A model generated the notes under the pieces. The model ran no database searches. It saw nothing but the letters and a program-made list of their open reading frames with translations, and was not told the DNA's origin. This document shows, piece by piece, positions 1 to 47,320 of a stretch of 51,263 nucleotides of DNA (positions are counted from its first letter, which is position 1; every line of letters begins with the position of its first letter). The position numbers and the translations under genes were made by a program. Origin of the DNA: a phage; the sequence record PZ452599.1; one strand, written 5' to 3'.

Positions 1-1569
1 ATGATCATATGGGAAGATTTGACGGCGGCGCAAAAGCGAGCCATTAAAGAAATCAGTGAGCATTCATTCGAAAAGATGATCAGAATCTGGTTCCAATTAT
101 TGCAGGGGCAAAAATTCCAGAGCAACTGGCATTTTAGCTTATTGTGCAGTGAGGTAGAGAAGATCATCAATGGAGAGTCGCAGAATGTGATTTTCAACAT
201 TACGCCAGGTAGCGGCAAGACTGAGATTTTCTCGATCCACATGTCACCCTACGCGTCATTGAAAAGCCGGAAAGTGAGAAACCTTAACCTTTCGTTTAGT
301 GATGGCCTTGTCCAGCAAAACAGCAACCGGATAAAGGAGATTATCGGTTCTCCTGAGTGGCAAGAGCTATGGCCTGGAAAACTGGCAAAGGCGAGCGCTA
401 AAGATCTGATAGTCACCGAAGGCGGCAAGGTTAAATTGCAAGTTAACTCACGTTCTATTGGCGGCCAGGTAACAGGTTTGCGTGGCGGATATATGGATGA
501 TGGTTTTACTGGTATGCTGGTTCTTGACGATCCAGACAAGCCGGATGATATGCTTTCTAAGGTCAAGCGCGAGGCTATTCACATGCGGTTAAAAAACACA
601 GTGCGATCGCGTCGAATGAAAGACACCACGCCAATTGTTATGGTGCAACAGCGACTACACGTTAATGATTCCACCTGGTTCATGCTTAATGGCGGGATGG
701 GTGGTATTGAGTTTAAAGTCGTGAGCATTCCGGCGCTGGTTACGAAAGAATACCGCGAAACGCTTCCTGATTGGTTGAAGCCTGAATTTGATCGTGATGT
801 GCTGTCAAGTAAGCCAGTGATGATAGATGGCGTCGCTCATTATTCATTTTGGCCTGCGAAGGAAAGCGCGGAGGAGTTGCTTGCATTGCGCAATGCAGAT
901 CCTTACACGTTCGCCAGCCAATACCAACAGCAACCAATCGCGCTTGGCGGGAACGTGTTTAAAACAGAGTGGTTCCAGTATTACGGCAGCGGCGAAAAGT
1001 GCGCACTACCAAAACCGGATCGCTTTGAATACACATTTATTACTGGAGATACCGCGCAGAAGGCCGGAGAGCTTAACGACTATTCGGTTTTTTGTTATTG
1101 GGGGATGTATAAGAATCGCGTTTACTTCATTGATGGCATTCGCGGAAAGTGGGAAGCGCCGGATCTTGAATTAAATTTTATTGCCTTCGTTAACCAGTGC
1201 TGGAAGCGCAATAAGGAGTGTGGCAGCTTGCGACGTATCCACATTGAGGATAAGGCCAGCGGCACGGGTTTGATTCAGGGGGCCAAAAAGAAGATCCCGA
1301 TTGATATAAATCCCGTTCAGCGAAGCAATGACAAGGTAACGCGAGCAATGGACGCCGCGCCAGTAATGAGGGCCGGACGTGTGGCACTGCCAGAAAATCA
1401 CCCAATGCTGCCTGAGATACTGGCAGAGGTTGCAGCATTCACTTTTGATGATTCTCATCCCCATGATGATATTGTCGATAATATAGTTGATGCTGTTAAC
1501 GTCGAAATGAACTTGGCAGATGATCCGGTGGCAAGGATGAAAAAGCTGGCAGGTCTACGCAATAAATAG
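1..1569 (+). CDS. terL: terminase large subunit
   Basis: 522-aa ORF with Walker A-like NITPGSGKTE and Walker B-like MLVLDDPD; directly follows terS if window ends are joined; ATG at position 1. Confidence 0.8.
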   Translation: MIIWEDLTAAQKRAIKEISEHSFEKMIRIWFQLLQGQKFQSNWHFSLLCSEVEKIINGESQNVIFNITPGSGKTEIFSIHMSPYASLKSRKVRNLNLSFSDGLVQQNSNRIKEIIGSPEWQELWPGKLAKASAKDLIVTEGGKVKLQVNSRSIGGQVTGLRGGYMDDGFTGMLVLDDPDKPDDMLSKVKREAIHMRLKNTVRSRRMKDTTPIVMVQQRLHVNDSTWFMLNGGMGGIEFKVVSIPALVTKEYRETLPDWLKPEFDRDVLSSKPVMIDGVAHYSFWPAKESAEELLALRNADPYTFASQYQQQPIALGGNVFKTEWFQYYGSGEKCALPKPDRFEYTFITGDTAQKAGELNDYSVFCYWGMYKNRVYFIDGIRGKWEAPDLELNFIAFVNQCWKRNKECGSLRRIHIEDKASGTGLIQGAKKKIPIDINPVQRSNDKVTRAMDAAPVMRAGRVALPENHPMLPEILAEVAAFTFDDSHPHDDIVDNIVDAVNVEMNLADDPVARMKKLAGLRNK

Positions 1570-1595
1570 CACTAATTGCTAAAAAGTTATATAAT
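1564..1595 (+). promoter_or_regulatory. variant motif (TAGCACTAATTGCTAAAAAG) followed by TATAAT, between terL and portal
   Basis: Begins with terL stop TAG; TATAAT at about 1590-1595; a near-identical variant follows the kinase gene at 47321-47358. Confidence 0.35.
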
Positions 1596-1598
1596 CAA

Positions 1599-1622
1599 GG
1601 CTGGATTTTTCCAGCCTTTTTT
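1599..1622 (+). terminator. intrinsic terminator after terL
   Basis: Hairpin GGCTGG-ATTTTT-CCAGCC followed by T-run. Confidence 0.55.
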
Positions 1623-1639
1623 ATTATGGAGATTTGACG

Positions 1640-2932
1640 ATGAGTGAAAAAACAAGGCTAGTTAAGGCCGATGGATACAACGAGATTTTCAAGGGTAGCA
1701 AGGGCAATGGGCGTGTGGAGTTGCCTTTCTTTATGCAAGGGTTCGAATACACCACGCACGCTGATTTTTACATTCGCGACGGCCTAGCAAAACGAATTAT
1801 CGACGTTGTTCCAGAAGAAATGGTGACACCTGGATTTAATATTGATGGCGTGGAAGATGAGGAGAGTTTTAGATCTTTGTGGGATGAGAAGCGACTAAAC
1901 GATAAAATCATTGATGCGCTTTGCTGGTCGCGTCTTTTTGGTGGCGCTGCAATCGTGGCAATCGTTCAGGATGGCAGGGCATTAAAGTCACCTGTAGCGC
2001 CTGGTGCAATCCTTGAAGATGTTCGCGTTTACGATCGCTTTCAGGTTCGCGTAGAAAAGCGCGAAACTAATCCACGTAAGGTGCGATATGGTGAGCCATT
2101 AATTTACACCATTTCACCTGGTGCGGACTTGCCAGAATATCAGGTTCACTATTCGCGAGTCTGTATTATCGACGGTGAGCGGCTACCAAATCAGCGACGT
2201 CAGTCAAATGATGGTTGGGGTGAGTCAATCCTGAATAAGCGATTGGTTGAGGCTATTTGTGATTACAACTACTGCGAAAACTTAGCAACTCAATTGTTGC
2301 GACGTAAGCAACAGGCAGTATGGAAAGCTAAAGGACTTGCCGATCTTTGTGATGATGATGATGGTGTTAACGCCGCACGTTTGCGCCTTGCTCAAGTTGA
2401 TGATGAGGGTGGCGTAGGTCGTGCGATCGGCATTGATGCGGAAGATGAGGAATATGATGTTTTAAATTCTGATATTTCCGGCGTCGATTCATTCCTGGAA
2501 AAGAAGATGGATCGCATTGTATCTCTTTCCGGCATCCATGAAATCATCCTCAAAAACAAGAACGTTGGCGGTGTTAGCGCGAGCCAAAACACGGCGCTTG
2601 AAACCTTCTACAAGCTGATCGATCGAAAGCGAAAGGAAGAATACAAACCAATCCTTGAATTTCTGATCCCGTTCCTGATTCAAGAGGAAGAATGGAGTAT
2701 TCAGTTTGCGCCGTTAAGCGTTCCCAGCGAAAAGGACCAGGCCGAGATCTTGAACAAGAATATTGATTCTTTGAGCAAGGCTATTGACGGTCAATTCATG
2801 GATACAGAGGAGGCGCGCGACACATTGCGAGCCATTGCGCCTAACGTTAAACTAAAGGACGGCAATAACATTAAATTACCTGAGCAGGACGTAGAGCCGG
2901 AGCCAGGAACAACCGAGGGTAGCAATCAATGA
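1640..2932 (+). CDS. portal protein
   Basis: 430 aa immediately after terL; ATG 1640 with GGAG 8 nt upstream (track ORF begins at in-frame TTG 1634). Assignment by position and size. Confidence 0.65.
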   Translation: MSEKTRLVKADGYNEIFKGSKGNGRVELPFFMQGFEYTTHADFYIRDGLAKRIIDVVPEEMVTPGFNIDGVEDEESFRSLWDEKRLNDKIIDALCWSRLFGGAAIVAIVQDGRALKSPVAPGAILEDVRVYDRFQVRVEKRETNPRKVRYGEPLIYTISPGADLPEYQVHYSRVCIIDGERLPNQRRQSNDGWGESILNKRLVEAICDYNYCENLATQLLRRKQQAVWKAKGLADLCDDDDGVNAARLRLAQVDDEGGVGRAIGIDAEDEEYDVLNSDISGVDSFLEKKMDRIVSLSGIHEIILKNKNVGGVSASQNTALETFYKLIDRKRKEEYKPILEFLIPFLIQEEEWSIQFAPLSVPSEKDQAEILNKNIDSLSKAIDGQFMDTEEARDTLRAIAPNVKLKDGNNIKLPEQDVEPEPGTTEGSNQ

Positions 2933-3684
2933 TAGTGAAAGGCGTCGTTAAACAATGGCGCTTTCCTGAAGCAAGCGAGCGGCAATTGCGCCGCTCAATT
3001 CAGGAGGCGATAAGGGATCTTGTTGTGCTGATGCGCAGCAAAACAAAGGAAATGAAATTTGACGCGGACACCGAAGAAATCAACGCCGCAGAGGATGAGA
3101 TTAGTAGCTTCGCGTTAAAGCTAATAGCTGGCATCGCCGCATCACTTCCGGTTATCGGCCTTGCTGTTTATAAATTCAACGCAAAGCAATTTATTAACGT
3201 AGCGAAATCAACGGGAGGCAAGTCAAATTCCGCCGTTATCATCCTTATGGCTATTGGGGCCAATGCGAATGAGAGTTGGTATAGGACGCTATACGGTCAA
3301 TGGCATGACATGACGATCGCATCTCTTCAAAAACTATTTGGAAACATCGTGTCTGACTGGTCAACCAATATCAGATCGGCAAACTTTCGCGGAATGAGAG
3401 ATAGTCAGGTTAATGAATTGGCTGGTAAGAGGTTCGCAGTGTATAGCTCTTGGGGTAAGACAAGGGCTGAAAATATCATAGGCGCTTGGAATAGTAGACT
3501 CATGCGCCAGCGTCTTTATGATTCAAAAGTAACTCATTATTTTTGGCATGGTATGCTTGATGACAGAGAACGATTGCAGCATGTACAATGGGAAGGTAAG
3601 CGCATTGCGCTAGATTCTGAACATGATTTTCCTGGTGAGCCTTTCGGTTGTCGTTGTTGGGCCATACCAGACTGGAACAGTTAA
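2929..3684 (+). CDS. minor head / head morphogenesis protein
   Basis: 250 aa; ATGA start-stop overlap with portal; position between portal and scaffold-like gene. Confidence 0.5.
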   Translation: MIVKGVVKQWRFPEASERQLRRSIQEAIRDLVVLMRSKTKEMKFDADTEEINAAEDEISSFALKLIAGIAASLPVIGLAVYKFNAKQFINVAKSTGGKSNSAVIILMAIGANANESWYRTLYGQWHDMTIASLQKLFGNIVSDWSTNIRSANFRGMRDSQVNELAGKRFAVYSSWGKTRAENIIGAWNSRLMRQRLYDSKVTHYFWHGMLDDRERLQHVQWEGKRIALDSEHDFPGEPFGCRCWAIPDWNS

Positions 3685-36565: not shown

Positions 36566-36610
36566 ATTTTAACGGCCCAATACTACCCCGTTTTGTCAAA
36601 AAGTGCTATT
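36566..36610 (-). promoter_or_regulatory. motif-type promoter (variant with TTGACA)
   Basis: Motif 36590-36610 (- strand reads AATAGCACTTTTTGACAAAAC); spacer hairpin GGGCCGTT...AACGGCCC; TAAAAT -10; upstream of P-loop gene. Confidence 0.5.
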
Positions 36611-36827
36611 TGATCCGCTCTATTGCAACCAGAAGTCGATCAGGCTGGCGGTCGCTGTAGCATTCTCCTGTAATCCCATCCTTAAACGTAAAGTAAAGCG
36701 CCTTATGATATGAAAAACCAATCAGCCAACCTACCGCCGTTTTTTTGATGGGCCTGACTATATCGCCAGGCTTGAAAGTCTTTGTGGTAGAATGCGTTAC
36801 TTTGTAACGGTTCTCACTGTTTATCAC
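36606..36827 (-). CDS. hypothetical protein
   Basis: 73 aa; GTG start overlapping upstream stop (GTGA); stop inside motif copy. Confidence 0.4.
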   Translation of the reverse strand: MINSENRYKVTHSTTKTFKPGDIVRPIKKTAVGWLIGFSYHKALYFTFKDGITGECYSDRQPDRLLVAIERIK

Positions 36828-37210
36828 AGATATTTGCCCTCAAACAGATAACATCCGCCAGCAGAGAATCCGACCTCTTCACGGTACAGGTTCCAGCGGT
36901 CGCCGCACTCATCAAAAACATAACCCGCAACGCTTCCAAGCGGTCGCCCTTTCTCGATCTGGTATCGCTTGCCCTGCTTAAAGTGCTTTTTGCACGGCAT
37001 GTTATGATCTACAAACGTGCAAAGAACGGTTTTTGTGTTAATGGCGCGGTAATCATCTCGGTTTGCTGGAAGCCAGCGGCTACCCTTAACAAGCGTCTTA
37101 ACTTGGAACTCTTCCACCTCGATCACATCATCACTTCCTGCAATCTTCTGATAAACCTTTTTAAAACGGCCTTTCATCAATACGTTGGTTTCATTACAGA
37201 TAACATTCAT
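36824..37210 (-). CDS. hypothetical protein
   Basis: 128 aa; AAGGAGA RBS; downstream of motif promoter 37241-37284. Confidence 0.55.
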   Translation of the reverse strand: MNVICNETNVLMKGRFKKVYQKIAGSDDVIEVEEFQVKTLVKGSRWLPANRDDYRAINTKTVLCTFVDHNMPCKKHFKQGKRYQIEKGRPLGSVAGYVFDECGDRWNLYREEVGFSAGGCYLFEGKYL

Positions 37211-38716: not shown

Positions 38717-38929
38717 TCATTTCTTATTTTTCAGCTTAAATTTATGACCTGGAACACCAGCTCCAATATACCCATCGTTGTATTCCATTAAATAAAGGTG
38801 AAGACCATTATCTGAAATTACATGAGGATCTTCTTTGAGATTTCCCATTAGTGGATATTCTTTTCCGCGCGTAAATTTCCAAATTGAGTTATAAGTTTCT
38901 ACGCATTTAAGTTTTAATTGCTTTGCCAT
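38717..38929 (-). CDS. hypothetical protein
   Basis: 70 aa; TAATG-type overlap with upstream gene. Confidence 0.45.
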   Translation of the reverse strand: MAKQLKLKCVETYNSIWKFTRGKEYPLMGNLKEDPHVISDNGLHLYLMEYNDGYIGAGVPGHKFKLKNKK

Positions 38930-39210
38930 TATGCGATCCCAGTTACGTTAAAACTTACAGCCTTTGTTGCGCTAAATACATAAGCATCAACAGCGCCGCC
39001 AAATACACGAATTTTACCCTGGCCGTACTGCGCATTCATATTTCGCCAAACCGTTCTATTAGAGCAGAATGCGCTACCAGTCTTAATAAGCGTATCCATC
39101 TCTTTTCTTAGATCGCGATAGTCCAGCCAGAATCTAAAGGCACGCTGTTTAATTCGCGCCGCCTTGATTTTTTCTCTTGCGCTATTGAAATCATTCTTTC
39201 CGTATGCCAT
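38929..39210 (-). CDS. hypothetical protein
   Basis: 93 aa; overlapping start/stop with neighbours. Confidence 0.45.
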   Translation of the reverse strand: MAYGKNDFNSAREKIKAARIKQRAFRFWLDYRDLRKEMDTLIKTGSAFCSNRTVWRNMNAQYGQGKIRVFGGAVDAYVFSATKAVSFNVTGIA

Positions 39211-39407
39211 TAAATGATCTCCATGTATGTTTCAAAGCCATTTAACTTGAACAGGCCGTTTTCACATTTGCGCACGTTCCAAGTTAGCCCTGAGTGGTAC
39301 GCCTCCATATCATCAAGGTCAATGGTGATTTCAGCACCTTTCTTAAACAAACCTTTTTCGTGAGACTTGTCGCGCTTAACAACTTTAACATCAACCTGAT
39401 TTTCCAT
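39210..39407 (-). CDS. hypothetical protein
   Basis: 65 aa from ATG 39407 (GAGGA 7 nt upstream); track start 39458 would lie inside promoter motif 39463-39483. Confidence 0.5.
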   Translation of the reverse strand: MENQVDVKVVKRDKSHEKGLFKKGAEITIDLDDMEAYHSGLTWNVRKCENGLFKLNGFETYMEII

Positions 39408-43171: not shown

Positions 43172-44065
43172 ATGTTAAAACTTGCTGACATTAAATTCCC
43201 TATCACCTTCGAATCTCGCGGCATTGGTCATTACATTTTTACCGATGAAAAAACATGCCATAAGGTTGATATGAATAGCGACAAACTAAGCCCATCAACA
43301 ATGGAGATCCTGCACTTTATTGATGCGCACAATACGCATTACAACGCACTTAAAGACTATGGCTATGCAATGCCAGGCTACACATGTTTGCACTACAAGC
43401 CATATAAGGGCCAGGTGTTACCAGTGCGCTCACCGGAACGCGCAGAGATTCCGATGGTCAATATGAAAACCTGCGACTACAAAAAGCTGTGGTGCTTAAG
43501 TCTGGACAATATCAAGTATCCGATCACGTTCCACACGACTGGTAAGTCAACGATTCGCTACACATCGCGCGACAATGGCGTTTATAGCGATGGTACGAAA
43601 TCAGAGTTGAAAGTTGATTTCTTTGTCAACGGTCACAACAAATTCAATCCGCACAACGAAGAGGATAAAGTGTATTACGTGGAAGACATTACAAAACACT
43701 TGTTTGGAGAAACTCCATTCGGCGGCGGAAAGACGTCAATTCAAAAAATCATTGGCGAGGAGATCCACAAAGCGGCTGCCGAAATGAAAGCGCCTGGAGG
43801 CTGGCGTATTGATAAGAGCGCCTTTGCCTATCAAGAAATCGTAACGCAGGGCGCGATTGAAGATATGCCAGTTGCAGCCACGCTAAAAGGAGTCCGACTT
43901 GATGACGGCACATGGTATGAGTTAACGGCTACACCAAAGACGATCGAAATTCATGATGATGTTGTTATCCTTCTGCTTCACTACGGCGGCACTAAAAACC
44001 GGACTGTTGCAGGTGAGATCAGCATCAAGCGCGGAACGATGGTTAAGTGGAAGGTGAAGATTTGA
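43172..44065 (+). CDS. hypothetical protein with internal duplication
   Basis: 297 aa; AGGAGA RBS; two related segments (LADIKFPITFESRG... / LDNIKYPITFHTTG...). Confidence 0.55.
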   Translation: MLKLADIKFPITFESRGIGHYIFTDEKTCHKVDMNSDKLSPSTMEILHFIDAHNTHYNALKDYGYAMPGYTCLHYKPYKGQVLPVRSPERAEIPMVNMKTCDYKKLWCLSLDNIKYPITFHTTGKSTIRYTSRDNGVYSDGTKSELKVDFFVNGHNKFNPHNEEDKVYYVEDITKHLFGETPFGGGKTSIQKIIGEEIHKAAAEMKAPGGWRIDKSAFAYQEIVTQGAIEDMPVAATLKGVRLDDGTWYELTATPKTIEIHDDVVILLLHYGGTKNRTVAGEISIKRGTMVKWKVKI

Positions 44066-44141: not shown

Positions 44142-44294
44142 ATGGCTACCTGGATTTTGCTGATTCTTATGATTGATGGCGGCGTTGACCATATCGAAAT
44201 GAATAGCCAGCAATCTTGCATTGAGGCACGAGAGCAGATCAAGAACAACAACAGGTTTTATGCGTACACTCACACGCTATGTATTAAGAAATAG
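44142..44294 (+). CDS. small membrane protein (50 aa, not in ORF track)
   Basis: ATG 44142 with GAGGTGAGAG RBS; N-terminal hydrophobic helix WILLILMI; stop TAG begins next motif copy. Confidence 0.45.
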   Translation: MATWILLILMIDGGVDHIEMNSQQSCIEAREQIKNNNRFYAYTHTLCIKK

Positions 44295-44333
44295 CACTTT
44301 TTGTTAAAACTCAAATGTGGGGCCAGGTATAAT
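44292..44333 (+). promoter_or_regulatory. motif-type promoter
   Basis: Motif 44292-44310; TATAAT 44328-44333 lies in the loop of hairpin GGGCC...GGCCC; upstream of gene 44364. Confidence 0.5.
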
Positions 44334-44363
44334 GGCCCTACTTTCAACGAAGGAGATAAAACG

Positions 44364-44582
44364 ATGTACATTAAAAAGAAGATGAAATGCGTTTCCGTTA
44401 ACTATGCTTGCTCTGGTATGTTCAAGCCTGGCGAAATCTATACAGCGCAAAAACTGAAATCATCAACCGGATCTTTTTACGTGAGCAATAGTAAGGGGCA
44501 TCGCATGTTCCTGAACGGCGGCGAAGGCACTAAGGTTATGGCACACGCTATGGTAATGGCTGAATTTGAGGAGGTGAAATAA
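44364..44582 (+). CDS. small protein of FxPGxxY family, paralog 1
   Basis: 72 aa from ATG 44364 (AAGGAG RBS); FKPGEIY...FLNGGEG and C-terminal AEFEEVK shared with next gene and HAD-protein C-terminus. Confidence 0.5.
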   Translation: MYIKKKMKCVSVNYACSGMFKPGEIYTAQKLKSSTGSFYVSNSKGHRMFLNGGEGTKVMAHAMVMAEFEEVK

Positions 44583-44815
44583 TGATCATTGAAAACAACT
44601 TTCTTTGCGTTAAGAGCAATCGACCATTCTTCACGCCTGGCAAGGTGTACCAGGGCAAGAAGGACACAAGAGATGGTCACTCTTATCATGTTCACTGCAA
44701 CAACGGATACAAGTTTTACCTTAACGGCGAGAATGGAACTGAGATCGTTGCTTTTGAAAACGTAGTTGCCGAGTTTGAGCAGCTTACAGACGCTGAATTT
44801 GAGGAAGTGAAATAA
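44582..44815 (+). CDS. small protein of FxPGxxY family, paralog 2
   Basis: 77 aa; TAATG overlap; FTPGKVY...YLNGENG; ends AEFEEVK. Confidence 0.5.
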   Translation: MIIENNFLCVKSNRPFFTPGKVYQGKKDTRDGHSYHVHCNNGYKFYLNGENGTEIVAFENVVAEFEQLTDAEFEEVK

Positions 44816-44817
44816 TC

Positions 44818-45027
44818 ATGGATCAGAACAAAACAGCAAAATATAAATTCACTGACGACTACGGAGACACTATCGACGTTTATCAGCGTGGGAATCAGAT
44901 CTTTATAGATGGCACTTTCGAATATGGCCGGATGCCAGACTTTCGGGGAATACTTTCGGCAGATAGCGCGCGACGCATGGCGAACGTGTTAAATAAACTG
45001 GCGGCAAAGATTGAGGCGATGCAATGA
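44818..45027 (+). CDS. hypothetical protein
   Basis: 69 aa; tightly packed after paralog 2. Confidence 0.45.
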   Translation: MDQNKTAKYKFTDDYGDTIDVYQRGNQIFIDGTFEYGRMPDFRGILSADSARRMANVLNKLAAKIEAMQ

Positions 45028-45815
45028 AAAAATACACTTTCGAACTGTGGGGCAAGAAGTACGAATTAATCACCAGCAAGCCGATTGTTATCGTTGATCT
45101 GGACGGCACGCTATCGGAAGGATCGCATCGTTTGCATTTGCTGCCAACTGAAAACTTGCACCTTACGGAATCGTGGCGCGAGTTTAACAGGGCCGCCGCC
45201 GGAGATTCACCGATTAAAAGCACTATCGCGGTTATTAACGGTTTATGGGTGTCGGGATTTGCCATCGTCATCTTGACCGGACGCAGCGACGAGGTTCGCT
45301 ATGAAACCTGCAAATGGTTGAATGAGAACGGCGTGAAGTTTGACGAAATCATCATGCGCCGCCAGGAGGACAACCGAAAGGATACGGTTATTAAAGAAGA
45401 AGCCTTGCGCGCTATTGGCCTGGACAACATTGTTTGCGCCTTTGACGATTCGCCGAACGTGGTTAAGCACTTCCGCAGCTTGGGGATCACAACCTATCAG
45501 GTCACGGAATACGACAAGCCACACGCTCACATACAATCTCACGGCGTGGATGAATTGAAGTCAAAAATCGAATGCGAAGGCGAGCACTGTTTTAGTGTGG
45601 TTGATGGTAAATGTTTGCGTTGCGGCGTGGAATCAATCAAGATCACGAAGCGCGCCCGATTCGTCGGCAGCAAAGACAGCCTGGTCAATGCCAGCTTTAT
45701 CAAAGGCAAGGTTTATGATGTTCATAGCCATGATAAAAACCGATTCTTTTTGTGGGATGAAAAAGGTTTTGGCTGGTGCTTTAAGCATGACGACGGCGAT
45801 TTTGTTAATGCGTAA
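45024..45815 (+). CDS. HAD-family phosphatase with C-terminal zinc-ribbon / FxPGxxY-like domain
   Basis: 263 aa; HAD motif I VIVDLDGTL, motif II ILTGRSD, motif IV FDDS; C-terminal CxxC...CxxC followed by FIKGKVYDV...FLWDEKG. Confidence 0.6.
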   Translation: MKKYTFELWGKKYELITSKPIVIVDLDGTLSEGSHRLHLLPTENLHLTESWREFNRAAAGDSPIKSTIAVINGLWVSGFAIVILTGRSDEVRYETCKWLNENGVKFDEIIMRRQEDNRKDTVIKEEALRAIGLDNIVCAFDDSPNVVKHFRSLGITTYQVTEYDKPHAHIQSHGVDELKSKIECEGEHCFSVVDGKCLRCGVESIKITKRARFVGSKDSLVNASFIKGKVYDVHSHDKNRFFLWDEKGFGWCFKHDDGDFVNA

Positions 45816-45858
45816 TAGCACTTTTTGTTAAAACATCTTAACGGGCTTGCGGTATAGT
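45816..45858 (+). promoter_or_regulatory. motif-type promoter
   Basis: Motif 45816-45834; TATAGT 45853-45858 inside hairpin GGGCTT...AAGCCC; upstream of gene 45890. Confidence 0.5.
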
Positions 45859-45889
45859 AAGCCCATCAACAACAAACGAGGATTAAATC

Positions 45890-46153
45890 ATGGCTAACAA
45901 GATCGAATTTTTCAAAGCGGTAGACATTATTGATGGCGCGCCTAGCTTCTTTGCGATCCATTCTATTGACGGCAAGGATATTGGGTACAACGTTATCCGT
46001 CGAGATGGAATCTCAAAACTTAGCGATCTGGTAGGACATATTGTGTCAAACGGGAAATGCGCATGGCCCGATTCGCAACGAGAGCCACGCCGCCGCGACA
46101 TGGTAGAGCCTGTTCTGCTTTACACTCTGGTAGTAGAAGGAGAAAATAAATGA
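45890..46153 (+). CDS. hypothetical protein
   Basis: 87 aa; GAGGA RBS; downstream of motif promoter 45816-45858. Confidence 0.5.
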   Translation: MANKIEFFKAVDIIDGAPSFFAIHSIDGKDIGYNVIRRDGISKLSDLVGHIVSNGKCAWPDSQREPRRRDMVEPVLLYTLVVEGENK

Positions 46154-46335
46154 TTTGGTTACTTGCTTTTTTGGTTGTTTTTCTTTACATTTCAGGCTTG
46201 TTTACGTTCCGCGCGTTGGTGAAATATTCTGACGCGACAGACAAAGACGATAAAATCGTTCTCGCTTTCTGGTTTGTTTGGGTGTGGTTAGCAATTTACG
46301 AGATCATCAGAGACAAACAGAAATTTGAGTGGTGA
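46150..46335 (+). CDS. small membrane protein (two predicted TMDs)
   Basis: 61 aa; ATGA coupling; hydrophobic LLAFLVVFLYISGLF and LAFWFVWVWLAIY segments. Confidence 0.45.
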   Translation: MIWLLAFLVVFLYISGLFTFRALVKYSDATDKDDKIVLAFWFVWVWLAIYEIIRDKQKFEW

Positions 46336-46391
46336 TTCTTGCTATGGCGCATTCATGCAGTGCGCCATGTTGAGAAAACCTAAAGGGGGAA

Positions 46392-46535
46392 ATGATGCGT
46401 AACTTTGAAAAAATCATTACCAAAAAGAAGCGTCGCGGGTACGATGAGCATGTGGAGTTTGTGAACAAACAGCGCAAGAAGCGCCATAGACGCGAAATGC
46501 TGCATAATATCAAATCACGCTATGGAGAAAACTAA
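46392..46535 (+). CDS. small basic protein (47 aa, not in ORF track)
   Basis: ATG 46392 with AGGGGG RBS; K/R-rich; stop abuts next ATG. Confidence 0.4.
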   Translation: MMRNFEKIITKKKRRGYDEHVEFVNKQRKKRHRREMLHNIKSRYGEN

Positions 46536-46727
46536 ATGCAATTGCCACCATTTGACAAAAAAAGCGAAGAGATTGCCAAAACTGCATGTCACCTTCGAGA
46601 GCTTGCCGACATGATAGAGCGCGGTCAGGTTATGATTGTCAATATGACGATCAAAAGCGAGAATAGAAATTTCAAGGTTTTAAGCGAGACAACAGAAATT
46701 ACCGTCTTGAAAGCAAGGGGAGAGTAA
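46536..46727 (+). CDS. hypothetical protein
   Basis: 63 aa; immediately after small basic ORF and before kinase. Confidence 0.45.
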   Translation: MQLPPFDKKSEEIAKTACHLRELADMIERGQVMIVNMTIKSENRNFKVLSETTEITVLKARGE

Positions 46728-46729
46728 TC

Positions 46730-47320
46730 ATGAAACGAGACATTATCATCCTTAATGGGCCTCCAGGTTGTGGAAAGGACACTATTGCAGCTTACCTAAC
46801 GGGCCATCGTTACCCTGCTGTCAAGGCGTCATTCAAACAGCCGATGTTCGATATTGCGTTTTCCATGCTGGGAGTGTACCGATACGATGAATTTATGGAC
46901 CTGTACAACGACCGAGAACAAAAAGAAAAGCCTCAAGTTATTTTGGGCGGCAAGTCACCTCGACAATTCATGATCTGGATTAGCGAGGATGTAATGAAGC
47001 CAGTTTTTGGAGATCACTATTTCGGGCGTCGAATGGTTGAAGAGATTCACGAGATGTACCGAGATTTGGCGGTTGTGATCAGTGATGGCGGATTCCCCGA
47101 AGAAATCAAACCGCTGGTTAAGGCAGGGCATGAAGTGCATATTTGCCGATTGCATCGCGACGGCTTCACGTTTGCTGGCGATTCGAGAGACTACATTGAC
47201 CTGAGCGGTTATCACTATCGAATCCATCACTATGACTTCCACTTGCAGGACGGCAAACCGGAACTGGCTGTAAACGAGATCGTCAATGCTGTCAAATGGA
47301 AACACACGCAGATTAAATAG
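46730..47320 (+). CDS. P-loop nucleotide/nucleoside-monophosphate kinase (T4 gp1 dNMP kinase-like)
   Basis: 196 aa; Walker A LNGPPGCGKDT; stop is followed by a variant motif copy. Confidence 0.55.
   Translation: MKRDIIILNGPPGCGKDTIAAYLTGHRYPAVKASFKQPMFDIAFSMLGVYRYDEFMDLYNDREQKEKPQVILGGKSPRQFMIWISEDVMKPVFGDHYFGRRMVEEIHEMYRDLAVVISDGGFPEEIKPLVKAGHEVHICRLHRDGFTFAGDSRDYIDLSGYHYRIHHYDFHLQDGKPELAVNEIVNAVKWKHTQIK

What the first reader, a model, noticed from the sequence alone, without database searches (positions are those of the whole stretch)
44364..47320. HAD phosphatase whose C-terminal domain is shared with two free-standing small proteins, near a P-loop kinase
Protein 45024-45815 has all HAD motifs, then a CxxC..CxxC ribbon and a segment (FIKGKVYDV...FLWDEKG) resembling the tandem small proteins 44364-44582 and 44582-44815 (FKPGEIY...FLNGGEG; FTPGKVY...YLNGENG; both ending AEFEEVK). 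A P-loop kinase lies 900 bp downstream. Phosphatase plus kinase recall the two halves of a polynucleotide kinase / 3'-phosphatase used in nucleic-acid end healing, and the shared small domain could be the substrate-targeting module. I do not recognise this domain.
Basis: inference. Interest (0 to 1): 0.55.

Follow-up and report, generated by a model that had tools for sequence, protein, structure and literature searches.

The report
Phage phosphatase carrying a Gp54-like barrel
In a T1-like coliphage, a kinase-less relative of the T4 Pnkp 3'-phosphatase carries a small SH3-like beta-barrel that is probably related to two upstream tandem small proteins; those fold like Gp54 of phage Bas11, a known trigger of the CapRel defence protein, while the nearby kinase is an ordinary T4 gp1-type dNMP kinase rather than half of a split polynucleotide kinase.

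Summary
The window is a nearly complete T1-like phage genome (Drexlerviridae, Warwickvirus-like).

**HAD protein (45024-45815).** It is a kinase-less homologue of the T4 Pnkp 3'-phosphatase domain, and the T4 catalytic residues align with identical or equivalent residues. After the core come a 27-aa Cys4 knuckle (CX4C...CX2C, not CxxC..CxxC) and a ~60-aa barrel. Both are optional modules among near-identical relatives.

**Shared domain.**
- Direct sequence comparison of the HAD tail with the small proteins is not significant.
- An independent model of the tail is a five-stranded SH3-like barrel, with Gp54 third of 48,164 chains.
- All strands coincide in a sequence-only alignment.
- Profile matches link the two through a 128-aa window protein (phrog_2684).

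I judge the shared domain probable, not proven.

**Kinase.** It aligns end to end with T4 gp1 dNMP kinase and matches T4 Pnk only at the P-loop. The closest relative has no annotated ligase. The split-PNKP reading is not supported, although HAD-then-kinase order is conserved across Drexlerviridae.

The parts
44290..44333 (+). Promoter-like element ahead of the sm1-sm2-p69-HAD unit: conserved 21-nt repeat AATAGCACTTTTTGTTAAAAC, then an 18-nt spacer and TATAAT
   Evidence: The repeat occurs 16 times in the window, co-oriented with the genes, against 0 expected. Aligned copies are each followed by a -10-like hexamer, an RBS and an ATG. Promoter scan: TTAAAA-18-TATAAT.
44364..44582 (+). sm1, 72 aa: free-standing six-stranded beta-barrel of Gp54(Bas11) type
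44582..44815 (+). sm2, 77 aa: tandem paralogue of sm1, start overlapping the sm1 stop (TAATG)
   Evidence: BLASTP against sm1 E=2e-14. Conserved in many T1-like phages.
44559..44598 (+). Junction repeat copy 1 (encodes AEFEEVK and holds the SD for sm2); copy 2 lies at 44792-44831
   Evidence: Direct repeat family D1, 83% identity over 40 nt; sequence read.
44818..45027 (+). p69, 69 aa, unknown function, syntenic partner of the HAD gene (phrog_14011)
   Evidence: Homologous to Tls gp10 (E=1e-8), which lies immediately after Tls pnkP; phrog_14011.
45024..45815 (+). HAD protein, 263 aa: Pnkp-type 3'-phosphatase core + Cys4 knuckle + beta-barrel
   Evidence: PF25109 1e-20 and phrog_415 3e-65. PDB hits to the T4 Pnkp phosphatase domain and to Pnkp1. 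hhalign against T4 Pnkp residues 202-298, probability 96.6%.
45084..45509 (+). HAD core (residues 21-162) holding D25, D27, T85, R87, D120, K124, D141, D142
   Evidence: Pfam match boundaries. Residue equivalences with T4 D165, D167, S211, R213, D254, K258, D277, D278. Roles of D165, D167, S211, K258 and D278 from PMC3592404.
45549..45629 (+). 27-aa insertion with C184-x4-C189...C197-x2-C200 (putative zinc knuckle)
   Evidence: Present in the window, BEK12A, G29-2 and P0002. Absent from Kalemo, vB_EcoS-95 and P0001. Precise indel between HGV and ESIK.
45630..45812 (+). C-terminal five-stranded SH3-like beta-barrel (residues 203-263)
45814..45834 (+). Next copy of the 21-nt promoter-associated repeat, starting at the HAD stop codon; it heads the unit that ends with the kinase
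45890..46727 (+). Four small ORFs of unknown function between HAD and kinase (87, 61, 47 and 63 aa; the 61-aa one is hydrophobic)
   Evidence: ORF list. phrog_25318 and phrog_16293, unknown function. Homologues annotated in relatives.
46730..47320 (+). T4 gp1-type deoxynucleoside monophosphate kinase, 196 aa (P-loop GPPGCGKDT)
   Evidence: phrog_139 4e-51. T4 gp1 falls in the same PHROG over the same profile region. hhalign against T4 gp1: 175 columns, E=1.6e-5. Against T4 Pnkp: P-loop only. 1463 phage records hold a homologue.
39210..39407 (-). Window's orthologue of Gp54(Bas11), 65 aa
   Evidence: phmmer against 9axb_A, 1.1e-14; phrog_7421; sits directly downstream of a promoter repeat.
38717..38929 (-). 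70-aa further member of the sm barrel family
   Evidence: Small-family HMM E=2.7e-5 among 588 window ORFs. hhalign P=6e-5, probability 65%.
36824..37210 (-). 128-aa protein (phrog_2684); its C-terminal half (about 36824-37054) bridges the sm family and the HAD barrel
   Evidence: hhalign to the sm family P=3.3e-4 and to the HAD barrel P=2.5e-4 to 8e-4. The HAD protein is its best non-self hit among 76 window ORFs. phrog_2684 1.8e-42.

Best explanation
This is part of the early region of a T1-like coliphage. Each short transcription unit starts at a conserved promoter-like repeat.

**Unit 1 (sm1, sm2, p69, HAD).** The phosphatase is a kinase-less homologue of the T4 Pnkp DxDxT 3'-phosphatase. 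By homology, D25 would form the aspartyl-phosphate, D27 would act as the acid/base, T85 and K124 would hold the phosphate, and D25 and D142 would hold Mg2+. The likely substrates are 3'-phosphate ends of DNA or RNA, or 3'-nucleotides.

**Appended modules.** Two optional modules follow the core: a 27-aa Cys4 knuckle and a five-stranded SH3-like beta-barrel. sm1 and sm2 are tandem paralogues that adopt the rare six-stranded Gp54(Bas11) barrel. The HAD barrel is most probably a version of the same phage barrel superfamily that lacks strand 6. Its closest relatives are the C-terminal half of phrog_2684 proteins and a free-standing 63-aa ORF of phage BEK12A. I infer that the barrel is a binding module that directs the phosphatase to a nucleic-acid or protein partner.

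**Unit 2 (ends with the kinase).** The kinase is a T4 gp1-type dNMP kinase. HAD-then-kinase order is ancestral in Drexlerviridae. The pair therefore most likely serves phage DNA and nucleotide metabolism: cleaning 3'-phosphate termini or 3'-nucleotides, and rephosphorylating dNMPs for phage DNA synthesis. It is not a split polynucleotide kinase-phosphatase.

**Shown:** family assignments, residue conservation, folds, modularity, synteny.

**Inferred:** substrates, the barrel's role, and common ancestry of the HAD barrel with sm1 and sm2.
For: **HAD.** PF25109 1e-20, phrog_415 3e-65. PDB hits to the T4 Pnkp phosphatase domain and to Pnkp1. hhalign probability 96.6% with catalytic residues aligned (residue roles from PMC3592404).

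**Modularity.** Relatives show core only (Tls, Stevie, 187 aa), core + knuckle (G29-2, 206 aa), core + barrel (Kalemo, vB_EcoS-95, 236 aa) and core + knuckle + barrel (window, BEK12A).

**HAD barrel.**
- pLDDT 84.6 from an alignment that held no sm or Gp54 sequence.
- Gp54 ranks 3rd of 48,164 chains, with the lowest rmsd among the top three hits.
- 22 of 24 strand residues coincide with sm1 strands in a sequence-only alignment.
- Profile chain: sm to p128c P=3.3e-4; p128c to HAD barrel P=2.5e-4 to 8e-4.
- HAD-barrel HMM finds AKS96_57 at E=1.6e-4 and a free-standing BEK12A ORF at 1.5e-3 among 705 ORFs.

**Kinase.** phrog_139 4e-51, shared with T4 gp1. 175-column alignment to gp1 (gp1 sequence verified against 1DEK). 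Only the P-loop matches T4 Pnkp.

**Synteny.** Overlapping HAD and kinase genes in Webervirus; Tls pnkP...dmk; T1-like Sfin-1 with one 36-aa ORF between them (PMC6714547).

**No ligase** in the relative's full annotation.
Against: - No enzymatic data exist for any member of this HAD or kinase lineage found here. The substrate (polynucleotide end or mononucleotide) is inferred from homology.
- The direct sm-to-HAD-barrel sequence signal is weak: P=0.0012 to 0.019, and the HAD ranks only 8th with the small-family HMM.
- The HAD barrel model matches ordinary SH3 domains as well as it matches Gp54. Only two of its five AF2 models are confident.
- Gp54 itself shows no sequence similarity to any of the other barrels (P>0.1), so 'one superfamily' rests on fold.
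- HAD and kinase lie in separate promoter-headed units, with four unrelated small ORFs between them.
Confidence: 0.55

Rival explanations
1. Split Pnkp. The HAD 3'-phosphatase and the downstream P-loop kinase together heal 2',3'-cyclic-phosphate/5'-OH breaks made by anticodon nucleases or similar defences, with the barrel guiding them to broken tRNA or DNA.
For: The HAD core is a genuine Pnkp-type phosphatase. HAD-then-kinase order is conserved, with overlapping genes in Webervirus. Many records label the HAD protein 'polynucleotide kinase'.
Against: The kinase aligns over its full length with T4 gp1 dNMP kinase and only over the P-loop with T4 Pnkp. It gives no hit to phrog_505 or 1LTQ. No RNA or DNA ligase is annotated in the closest complete relative. 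The GenBank 'polynucleotide kinase' labels are transferred from the phosphatase-domain match alone (notes).
Confidence: 0.1
2. The HAD C-terminal domain is a generic SH3/KOW/Tudor-like barrel acquired independently. Its resemblance to sm1 and sm2 is convergence on a common small fold plus a few chance motif matches, so there is no shared domain in the evolutionary sense.
Against: The sequence-only alignment is colinear and places all five strands and the loop helix in register. The transitive links are each at P<1e-3. The HAD protein is the best non-self hit of the p128 profile, and sm2 is the best non-self hit of the combined HAD-barrel plus AKS96_57 HMM (E=0.016), within the same genome. A free-standing homologue sits right after the BEK12A HAD gene. 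sm-type barrels recur next to the HAD/kinase module (Tls gp15 after dmk).
Confidence: 0.3
3. The HAD enzyme is a mononucleotide phosphatase (a class B acid-phosphatase-like 5'/3'-nucleotidase). It works against or alongside the dNMP kinase to set nucleotide pools, as the 5'-deoxyribonucleotidase and dNMP kinase of phage T5 do (T5 biology recalled from memory, not checked here), and has no role at polynucleotide ends.
For: A second Pfam match to PF03767, HAD IIIB acid phosphatase, at 1.2e-9. Conserved pairing with a dNMP kinase. [quoted passage not shown]
Against: The best matches by far are the Pnkp-type families (PF25109, phrog_415, PDB 4xrp, 1ltq). The segment between motifs I and II is short, as in T4 Pnkp (sequence reading), which I take from general knowledge of HAD enzymes to suit polymer ends. 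A fused binding barrel and zinc knuckle are easier to explain for a macromolecular substrate.
Confidence: 0.2

Closest known systems
T4 polynucleotide kinase-phosphatase (Pnkp/PseT), C-terminal DxDxT 3'-phosphatase domain (PDB 1LTQ, 5UJ0; Pfam PF25109 HAD_PNKP)
   Same: Same HAD family above the Pfam threshold. The nucleophile, acid/base, phosphate-binding and Mg2+-binding residues are conserved.
   Different: There is no N-terminal P-loop kinase domain: the protein starts 20 residues before motif I. It carries a C-terminal Cys4 knuckle and a beta-barrel that T4 Pnkp lacks. The closest relative has no annotated partner RNA ligase.
Gp54 of Escherichia phage Bas11 (PDB 9AXB; Zhang et al., Nature 2024, PMC11578894)
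   Different: Only 15% identity, with no detectable sequence relationship (P=0.5). They fall in different PHROGs. Nothing is known about CapRel activation by sm1 or sm2, and even close Gp54 homologues do not activate it. The HAD-fused copy lacks strand 6.
T4 gp1 deoxynucleoside monophosphate kinase (PDB 1DEK)
   Same: Same PHROG (139) over the same profile region. GKD(T) P-loop. End-to-end profile alignment of 175 columns.
   Different: Much more compact: 196 against 241 aa, lacking the large T4 insertion. The PDB sequence-profile search reaches 1DEK only at E=0.7. Substrate range is untested.
SH3-like small beta-barrels (SH3, KOW, Tudor, FeoA)
   Different: No Pfam SH3-type family matches. 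No proline-peptide-binding signature was examined. The context is a phage phosphatase.

Membership tests
HAD_PNKP (Pnkp-type DxDxT 3'-phosphatase) | Profile match above the curated threshold | tested here: met
   PF25109: 74.8 bits against a cut-off of 27.6, E=1e-20, residues 21-162. phrog_415 3e-65.
HAD_PNKP (Pnkp-type DxDxT 3'-phosphatase) | Motif I DxDxT nucleophile and acid/base; Ser/Thr and Lys phosphate contacts; Asp Mg2+ ligand | tested here: met
   D25-L-D27-G-T, T85, K124 and D142 align with T4 D165, D167, S211, K258 and D278. Roles from PMC3592404.
HAD_PNKP (Pnkp-type DxDxT 3'-phosphatase) | 3'-phosphatase activity on polynucleotide ends | not testable with these tools
   Needs an enzyme assay.
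Bifunctional Pnkp end-healing system (T4 PseT type) | Polynucleotide 5'-kinase domain of the T4 Pnk type, fused or encoded nearby | tested here: not met
   The HAD protein has no N-terminal kinase domain. The nearby kinase matches T4 Pnkp only over 23 P-loop residues. It gives no hit to phrog_505 or 1LTQ.
Bifunctional Pnkp end-healing system (T4 PseT type) | Partner ligase to seal healed ends | tested here: not met
   No ligase among the 89 annotated features of the closest complete relative, vB_EcoS-95. The window's own ORFs were not all scanned individually.
T4 gp1-type dNMP kinase (phrog_139) | Full-length profile match and GxxGxGKD(T/S) P-loop | tested here: met
   phrog_139 4.2e-51 over profile positions 81-261; T4 gp1 matches positions 83-261. 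hhalign 175 columns, E=1.6e-5, probability 79%. GPPGCGKDT read from the sequence.
T4 gp1-type dNMP kinase (phrog_139) | dNMP to dNDP phosphotransfer activity | not testable with these tools
   Needs an enzyme assay.
Gp54(Bas11)-type six-stranded beta-barrel | Six strands, prominent loop between strands 1 and 2, structural match to 9AXB clearly above SH3 domains | tested here: met
Gp54(Bas11)-type six-stranded beta-barrel | Same criterion applied to the HAD C-terminal domain | tested here: inconclusive
Gp54(Bas11)-type six-stranded beta-barrel | Detectable sequence homology to Gp54 | tested here: not met
   hhalign P=0.5 (sm), 0.12 (HAD barrel), 0.22 (p128c), 0.27 (70-aa protein). Only ORF 39210-39407 is a sequence orthologue.
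sm barrel family (phrog_9122/10169) | Significant profile match of the HAD C-terminal domain | tested here: inconclusive
   Direct: HMM 1.3-8.1 bits, hhalign P=0.0012 to 0.019. Transitive through phrog_2684: P=3.3e-4 and 2.5e-4 to 8e-4, HMM E=1.6e-4. A search of 1.84 billion representative proteins with the sm profile retrieved no HAD fusion.

The most novel reading that the evidence does not exclude
T1-like phages carry a diversified multigene family of Gp54-type barrels. I count at least five or six copies in this genome: the Gp54 orthologue, the 70-aa protein, the p128 C-terminal half, sm1, sm2 and the HAD tail. In this reading they are binding modules for host or immune components. The HAD-fused copy would recruit a 3'-end phosphatase to a defence-related target, for example tRNA 3' ends pyrophosphorylated by CapRel-type toxSAS enzymes or 3'-phosphate ends left by defence nucleases. 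The fusion would then be a clue to the unknown natural function of the CapRel trigger Gp54.
Probability: 0.07. Interest if true: 0.8.

Novelty: new variant of a known kind. Interest (0 to 1): 0.42.

Why it matters
The two enzymes are ordinary and already annotated in relatives, although the HAD protein is often mislabelled 'polynucleotide kinase' when it has no kinase domain.

The barrel is the new part. Gp54 of Bas11 is a structurally unusual protein of unknown function. It is known only as a direct trigger of the CapRelSJ46 immunity protein, and the paper describing it does not mention paralogues.

This analysis adds three points:
- The same rare fold is predicted for other early proteins of these phages.
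- The barrels appear to form a family with several copies per genome.
- A related barrel is fused, as an optional module, to a 3'-end phosphatase.

Together these give testable leads to what the barrels do: binding assays, phosphatase targeting, and trials on tRNA 3'-pyrophosphate.

The analysis also corrects the annotation. This is a kinase-less 3'-phosphatase plus a gp1-type dNMP kinase, not a PNKP.

Tried and rejected
- **Pairwise BLASTP of sm1 and sm2 against the HAD protein.** Nothing for sm1; E=0.008 for sm2 in a different register.
- **Pfam and NCBIfam on ten barrel sequences.** No family found.
- **Word-indexed homologue searches.** They returned only close T1-like relatives.
- **Full HMMER search of 1.84 billion representative proteins with the sm profile.** It gave 21 hits. 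The small ones are all close relatives of sm1, sm2 or Tls gp15. The large repetitive proteins matched only through short repeat units (for example the repeat units of P0042), which I judged not informative. No HAD fusion was retrieved.
- **PDB sequence searches with the sm profile and the 70-aa protein.** No link to 9AXB. The link appeared only by structure.
- **PDB profile search for the kinase.** Only P-loop-level hits; 1DEK at E=0.7. This was resolved by profile-profile comparison and PHROG co-membership.
- **Tls gp19 as another fusion context for the sm barrel.** Only a partial 32-residue match, and it was not reproduced in Stevie, so I dropped it.
- **The 21-nt repeat as a recombination boundary or terminator.** Aligned copies look like promoter upstream halves.
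- **Literature search for work on the T1-like HAD enzyme.** Only annotation-level statements were found.

Full report
**Identity of the window**

The region matches T1-like coliphages at 92-97% DNA identity: vB_EcoS-95, Kalemo, SECphi27, BEK12A and others. These are classified as Drexlerviridae, Tempevirinae, Warwickvirus or Hanrivervirus. At 51,263 bases the window is close to a complete genome of this type.

**The HAD protein (45024-45815, 263 aa)**

- It matches Pfam PF25109 (HAD_PNKP) at 1e-20, 74.8 bits against a cut-off of 27.6. It matches phrog_415 at 3e-65.
- Its only solved relatives by sequence are the phosphatase domains of T4 Pnkp and of Capnocytophaga Pnkp1.
- A profile comparison with T4 Pnkp aligns residues 76-162 with T4 202-298 at 96.6% probability.
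- Together with the motif I alignment, this gives D25/D27/T85/R87/D120/K124/D141/D142 = T4 D165/D167/S211/R213/D254/K258/D277/D278.
- For T4, Asp165 is the phosphoryl acceptor, Asp167 the acid/base, Ser211 and Lys258 contact the phosphate, and Asp165 and Asp278 bind Mg2+ (PMC3592404).
- The protein starts only 20 residues before motif I, so there is no kinase domain. The common GenBank label 'polynucleotide kinase' is a transfer from the phosphatase match (notes).

**A modular C-terminus**

Aligning relatives shows four architectures.

| Architecture | Examples | Length |
|---|---|---|
| Core only | Tls, Stevie | 187 aa |
| Core + 27-aa Cys4 insertion | G29-2, P0002 | 206 aa for G29-2; P0002 is a 100-aa fragment |
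| Core + C-terminal domain | Kalemo, vB_EcoS-95 and about 25 records | 236 aa |
| Core + insertion + domain | this window, BEK12A, BEK26 | 263-264 aa |

- The insertion is DELKSKIECEGEHCFSVVDGKCLRCGV, residues 176-202. It sits exactly between HGV and ESIK and carries CX4C...CX2C, not CxxC..CxxC.
- The window's version combines a barrel identical to Kalemo's with a knuckle 92% identical to that of G29-2. The gene looks mosaic.

**The two small proteins**

- sm1 (44364-44582) and sm2 (44582-44815) are real paralogues: 34% identity, E=2e-14. Their genes overlap (TAATG), and sm1 has a good RBS.
- The family is narrow at sequence level. A full HMMER search of 1.84 billion representative proteins gave 21 hits. 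The small ones are close relatives of sm1, sm2 or Tls gp15. tblastn also finds Tls gp15 and two tandem copies in Edwardsiella phage PVN06.
- No Pfam or NCBIfam family matches. The PHROGs are of unknown function.
- The shared AEFEEVK tail is encoded by a DNA repeat, GCTGAATTTGAGGAGGTGAAATAA, at 44559 and 44792. The repeat contains the Shine-Dalgarno sequence of the following gene.
- In sm2 the repeat follows the domain's own AEFEQ, so it is partly a junction element.
- Database variants include an sm1-leader/sm2 hybrid (P0011) and an internal duplication (P0015), which suggests recombination between the copies.

**Fold of the small proteins**

- AlphaFold2 on a 16-sequence alignment gave pLDDT 94.7 for sm1. 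The model has six strands and a long loop between strands 1 and 2.
- Its function is unknown and it is non-essential. It directly activates the CapRelSJ46 defence protein (PMC11578894).
- That paper does not mention paralogues (the term does not occur in its text).
- The window has its own Gp54 orthologue on the minus strand (39210-39407; phmmer 1.1e-14 to 9AXB).

**Is the HAD tail the same domain?**

Direct sequence tests are weak:
- BLASTP gives nothing, or E=0.008 in another register.
- The small-family HMM gives 1.3-8.1 bits and ranks the HAD 8th of 588 window ORFs.
- hhalign gives P=0.0012 to 0.019, but colinear over 56-57 columns.

Three other lines support a relationship.

1. *A bridge family.*
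   - The C-terminal half of the 128-aa window protein (36824-37210, phrog_2684) matches the sm profile at P=3.3e-4 and the HAD tail at P=2.5e-4 to 8e-4.
   - The HAD is its best non-self hit among 76 window ORFs.
   - An HMM built from HAD tails alone finds the Rogunavirus homologues AKS96_57 and Phagiculus_40 at E=1.6e-4 and 3.5e-4.
   - The same HMM finds a free-standing 63-aa ORF immediately downstream of the BEK12A HAD gene at E=1.5e-3, among 705 ORFs.
   - In these window-wide scans unrelated ORFs begin at about P=0.01 to 0.02, as expected for 76 targets. The P-values therefore look calibrated.
2. *An independent model.*
   - The model of the 63-aa tail was built without any sm or Gp54 sequence in its alignment.
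   - It reached pLDDT 84.6 in the best model; the others ranged from 78.5 down to 54.7.
   - It shows strand 1, a helical loop, then strands 2 to 5.
3. *Register.*
   - The sequence-only hhalign alignment places 22 of the 24 strand residues of the tail on strand residues of sm1, and the loop helices coincide too.
   - However, FFLWDEKG pairs with FYVSNSKG, not with FLNGGEG.

The tail ends where strand 5 ends, so it lacks strand 6.

I put common ancestry with the sm and p128 barrels at roughly 60-65%. The alternative is an unrelated SH3-like barrel.

Foldseek against BFVD shows the fold is common among small uncharacterised phage proteins. One example is a 62-aa protein of the T1-like Klebsiella phage GH-K3, at 38% identity in the structural alignment.

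**The kinase (46730-47320)**

- It matches phrog_139 (deoxynucleoside monophosphate kinase) at 4e-51.
It matches the same PHROG over the same profile positions.
- T4 gp1 aligns with a six-member profile of the window's family over 175 columns (E=1.6e-5, probability 79%).
- The same profile matches T4 Pnkp only over the first 23 residues, the P-loop.
- Homologues occur in 1463 phage records and are widely annotated as dNMP kinase.
- The closest relative's complete annotation lists no RNA or DNA ligase and no polymerase.

The split-PNKP reading is therefore not supported.

**Gene organisation**

- A 21-nt sequence, AATAGCACTTTTTGTTAAAAC, occurs 16 times in the window within 3 mismatches. It is always co-oriented with the genes, against 0 expected by chance.
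- Aligned copies are followed, after 17-18 nt that often form a hairpin, by a -10-like hexamer, then an RBS and a start codon. They look like the upstream halves of conserved phage promoters.
- One copy precedes sm1. One starts at the HAD stop codon. A degenerate copy (71% identity, found by the repeat search) sits at the kinase stop codon.
- HAD and kinase are therefore each the last gene of two consecutive short units.
- HAD-then-kinase order is nevertheless conserved across the family.
  - The genes overlap in Klebsiella Webervirus, next to an SbcD-like exonuclease.
  - They are separated by one 36-aa ORF in T1-like Sfin-1 (PMC6714547).
  - They are separated by four small genes in Tls and Stevie.
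- sm-type barrels and the p69 family stay near this module. Tls gp15 follows dmk. Tls gp10, a p69 homologue at E=1e-8, follows pnkP.

**Most likely function**

*Shown:* a catalytically intact Pnkp-type 3'-phosphatase core, optional knuckle and barrel modules, a gp1-type dNMP kinase, and conserved synteny.

*Inferred:*
- The phosphatase removes 3'-phosphates from DNA or RNA ends or from 3'-nucleotides.
- The kinase feeds dNMPs into phage DNA synthesis.
- Because the phage depends on host polymerase and ligase, I infer the pair serves DNA and nucleotide metabolism during infection.
- The barrel acts as a binding module. By the fusion argument, the free-standing barrels might act in trans with the same enzyme or target.

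None of this can be tested in silico.

**Speculative reading**

This one is low in probability but cannot be excluded. Gp54 binds a tRNA-3'-pyrophosphorylating immunity protein, and a barrel of the same fold class is fused to a 3'-end phosphatase. The family may therefore be involved in interactions with such defences.

**Verdict**

- The PNKP interpretation is not supported.
- The enzymes are ordinary and already annotated.
- The barrel family and its fusion to the phosphatase are a modestly novel variant worth a targeted experiment.

Noticed in passing
window, 16 sites, e.g. 30114, 31185, 42609, 43072, 44290, 45814, 48610 (+) and 39969, 41273 (-): A 21-nt sequence, AATAGCACTTTTTGTTAAAAC, occurs 16 times within 3 mismatches (0 expected), always co-oriented with the genes. 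Each copy is followed, after 17-18 nt that often form a GC-rich hairpin, by a -10-like hexamer, an RBS and an ATG. These look like conserved phage promoters heading many short early transcription units.
   Followed up: partly
window 39210-39407 (-): Orthologue of the CapRelSJ46 trigger Gp54(Bas11) (phmmer 1.1e-14 to 9AXB). It has V7, A25, K47 and F53 where Bas11 has A7, I25, Q47 and W53. The Bas11 paper ties A7V and I25V to loss of activation, so this copy is probably not a CapRel trigger.
   Followed up: partly
window 38717-38929 (-), 36824-37210 (-), 36606-36827 (-): Further probable members of the small-barrel family on the opposite strand. The 70-aa protein matches at hhalign P=6e-5, the C-terminal half of the 128-aa phrog_2684 protein at P=3e-4, and a 73-aa protein marginally at P=0.007.
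   Followed up: partly
window 44818-45027 (+); L006 1445-1633: The 69-aa protein between sm2 and the HAD gene is homologous to Tls gp10 (E=1e-8), which lies immediately after Tls pnkP. This small protein therefore stays next to the phosphatase gene on either side. Its function is unknown.
   Followed up: partly
L002 (BEK12A) 2795-2986: BEK12A has an extra 63-aa ORF directly after its HAD gene. The ORF matches the HAD C-terminal barrel HMM at E=1.5e-3, so it is a free-standing copy next to the fused one.
   Followed up: partly
proteins P0011, P0015 (metagenomic relatives of 44301-44815): P0011 joins the upstream leader of sm1 to the body of sm2, which looks like deletion by recombination between the paralogues. 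P0015 has an internal MFKPG duplication.
   Followed up: no
L010 (Klebsiella Webervirus) 845-3079: In Webervirus an SbcD/Mre11-like 'DNA repair exonuclease', the HAD phosphatase (169 aa, no tail) and the dNMP kinase are contiguous, and the last two genes overlap. In the Warwickvirus relative vB_EcoS-95 the exonuclease gene lies about 12 kb from the HAD gene.
   Followed up: no
window 43172-44065 (+): The 297-aa protein upstream (phrog_7116, matched in two stretches) seems to contain an internal duplication: IKFPITFESRG... and IKYPITFHTTG.... Function unknown.
   Followed up: no
protein P0042 and other large hits: The sm profile weakly matches single repeat units (NGQYLCAEGGGGREV..ANR....WE.F) of large repetitive proteins. 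The repeat looks fascin- or beta-trefoil-like to me, from memory and not tested. I judged this a short-motif resemblance, not homology.
   Followed up: no
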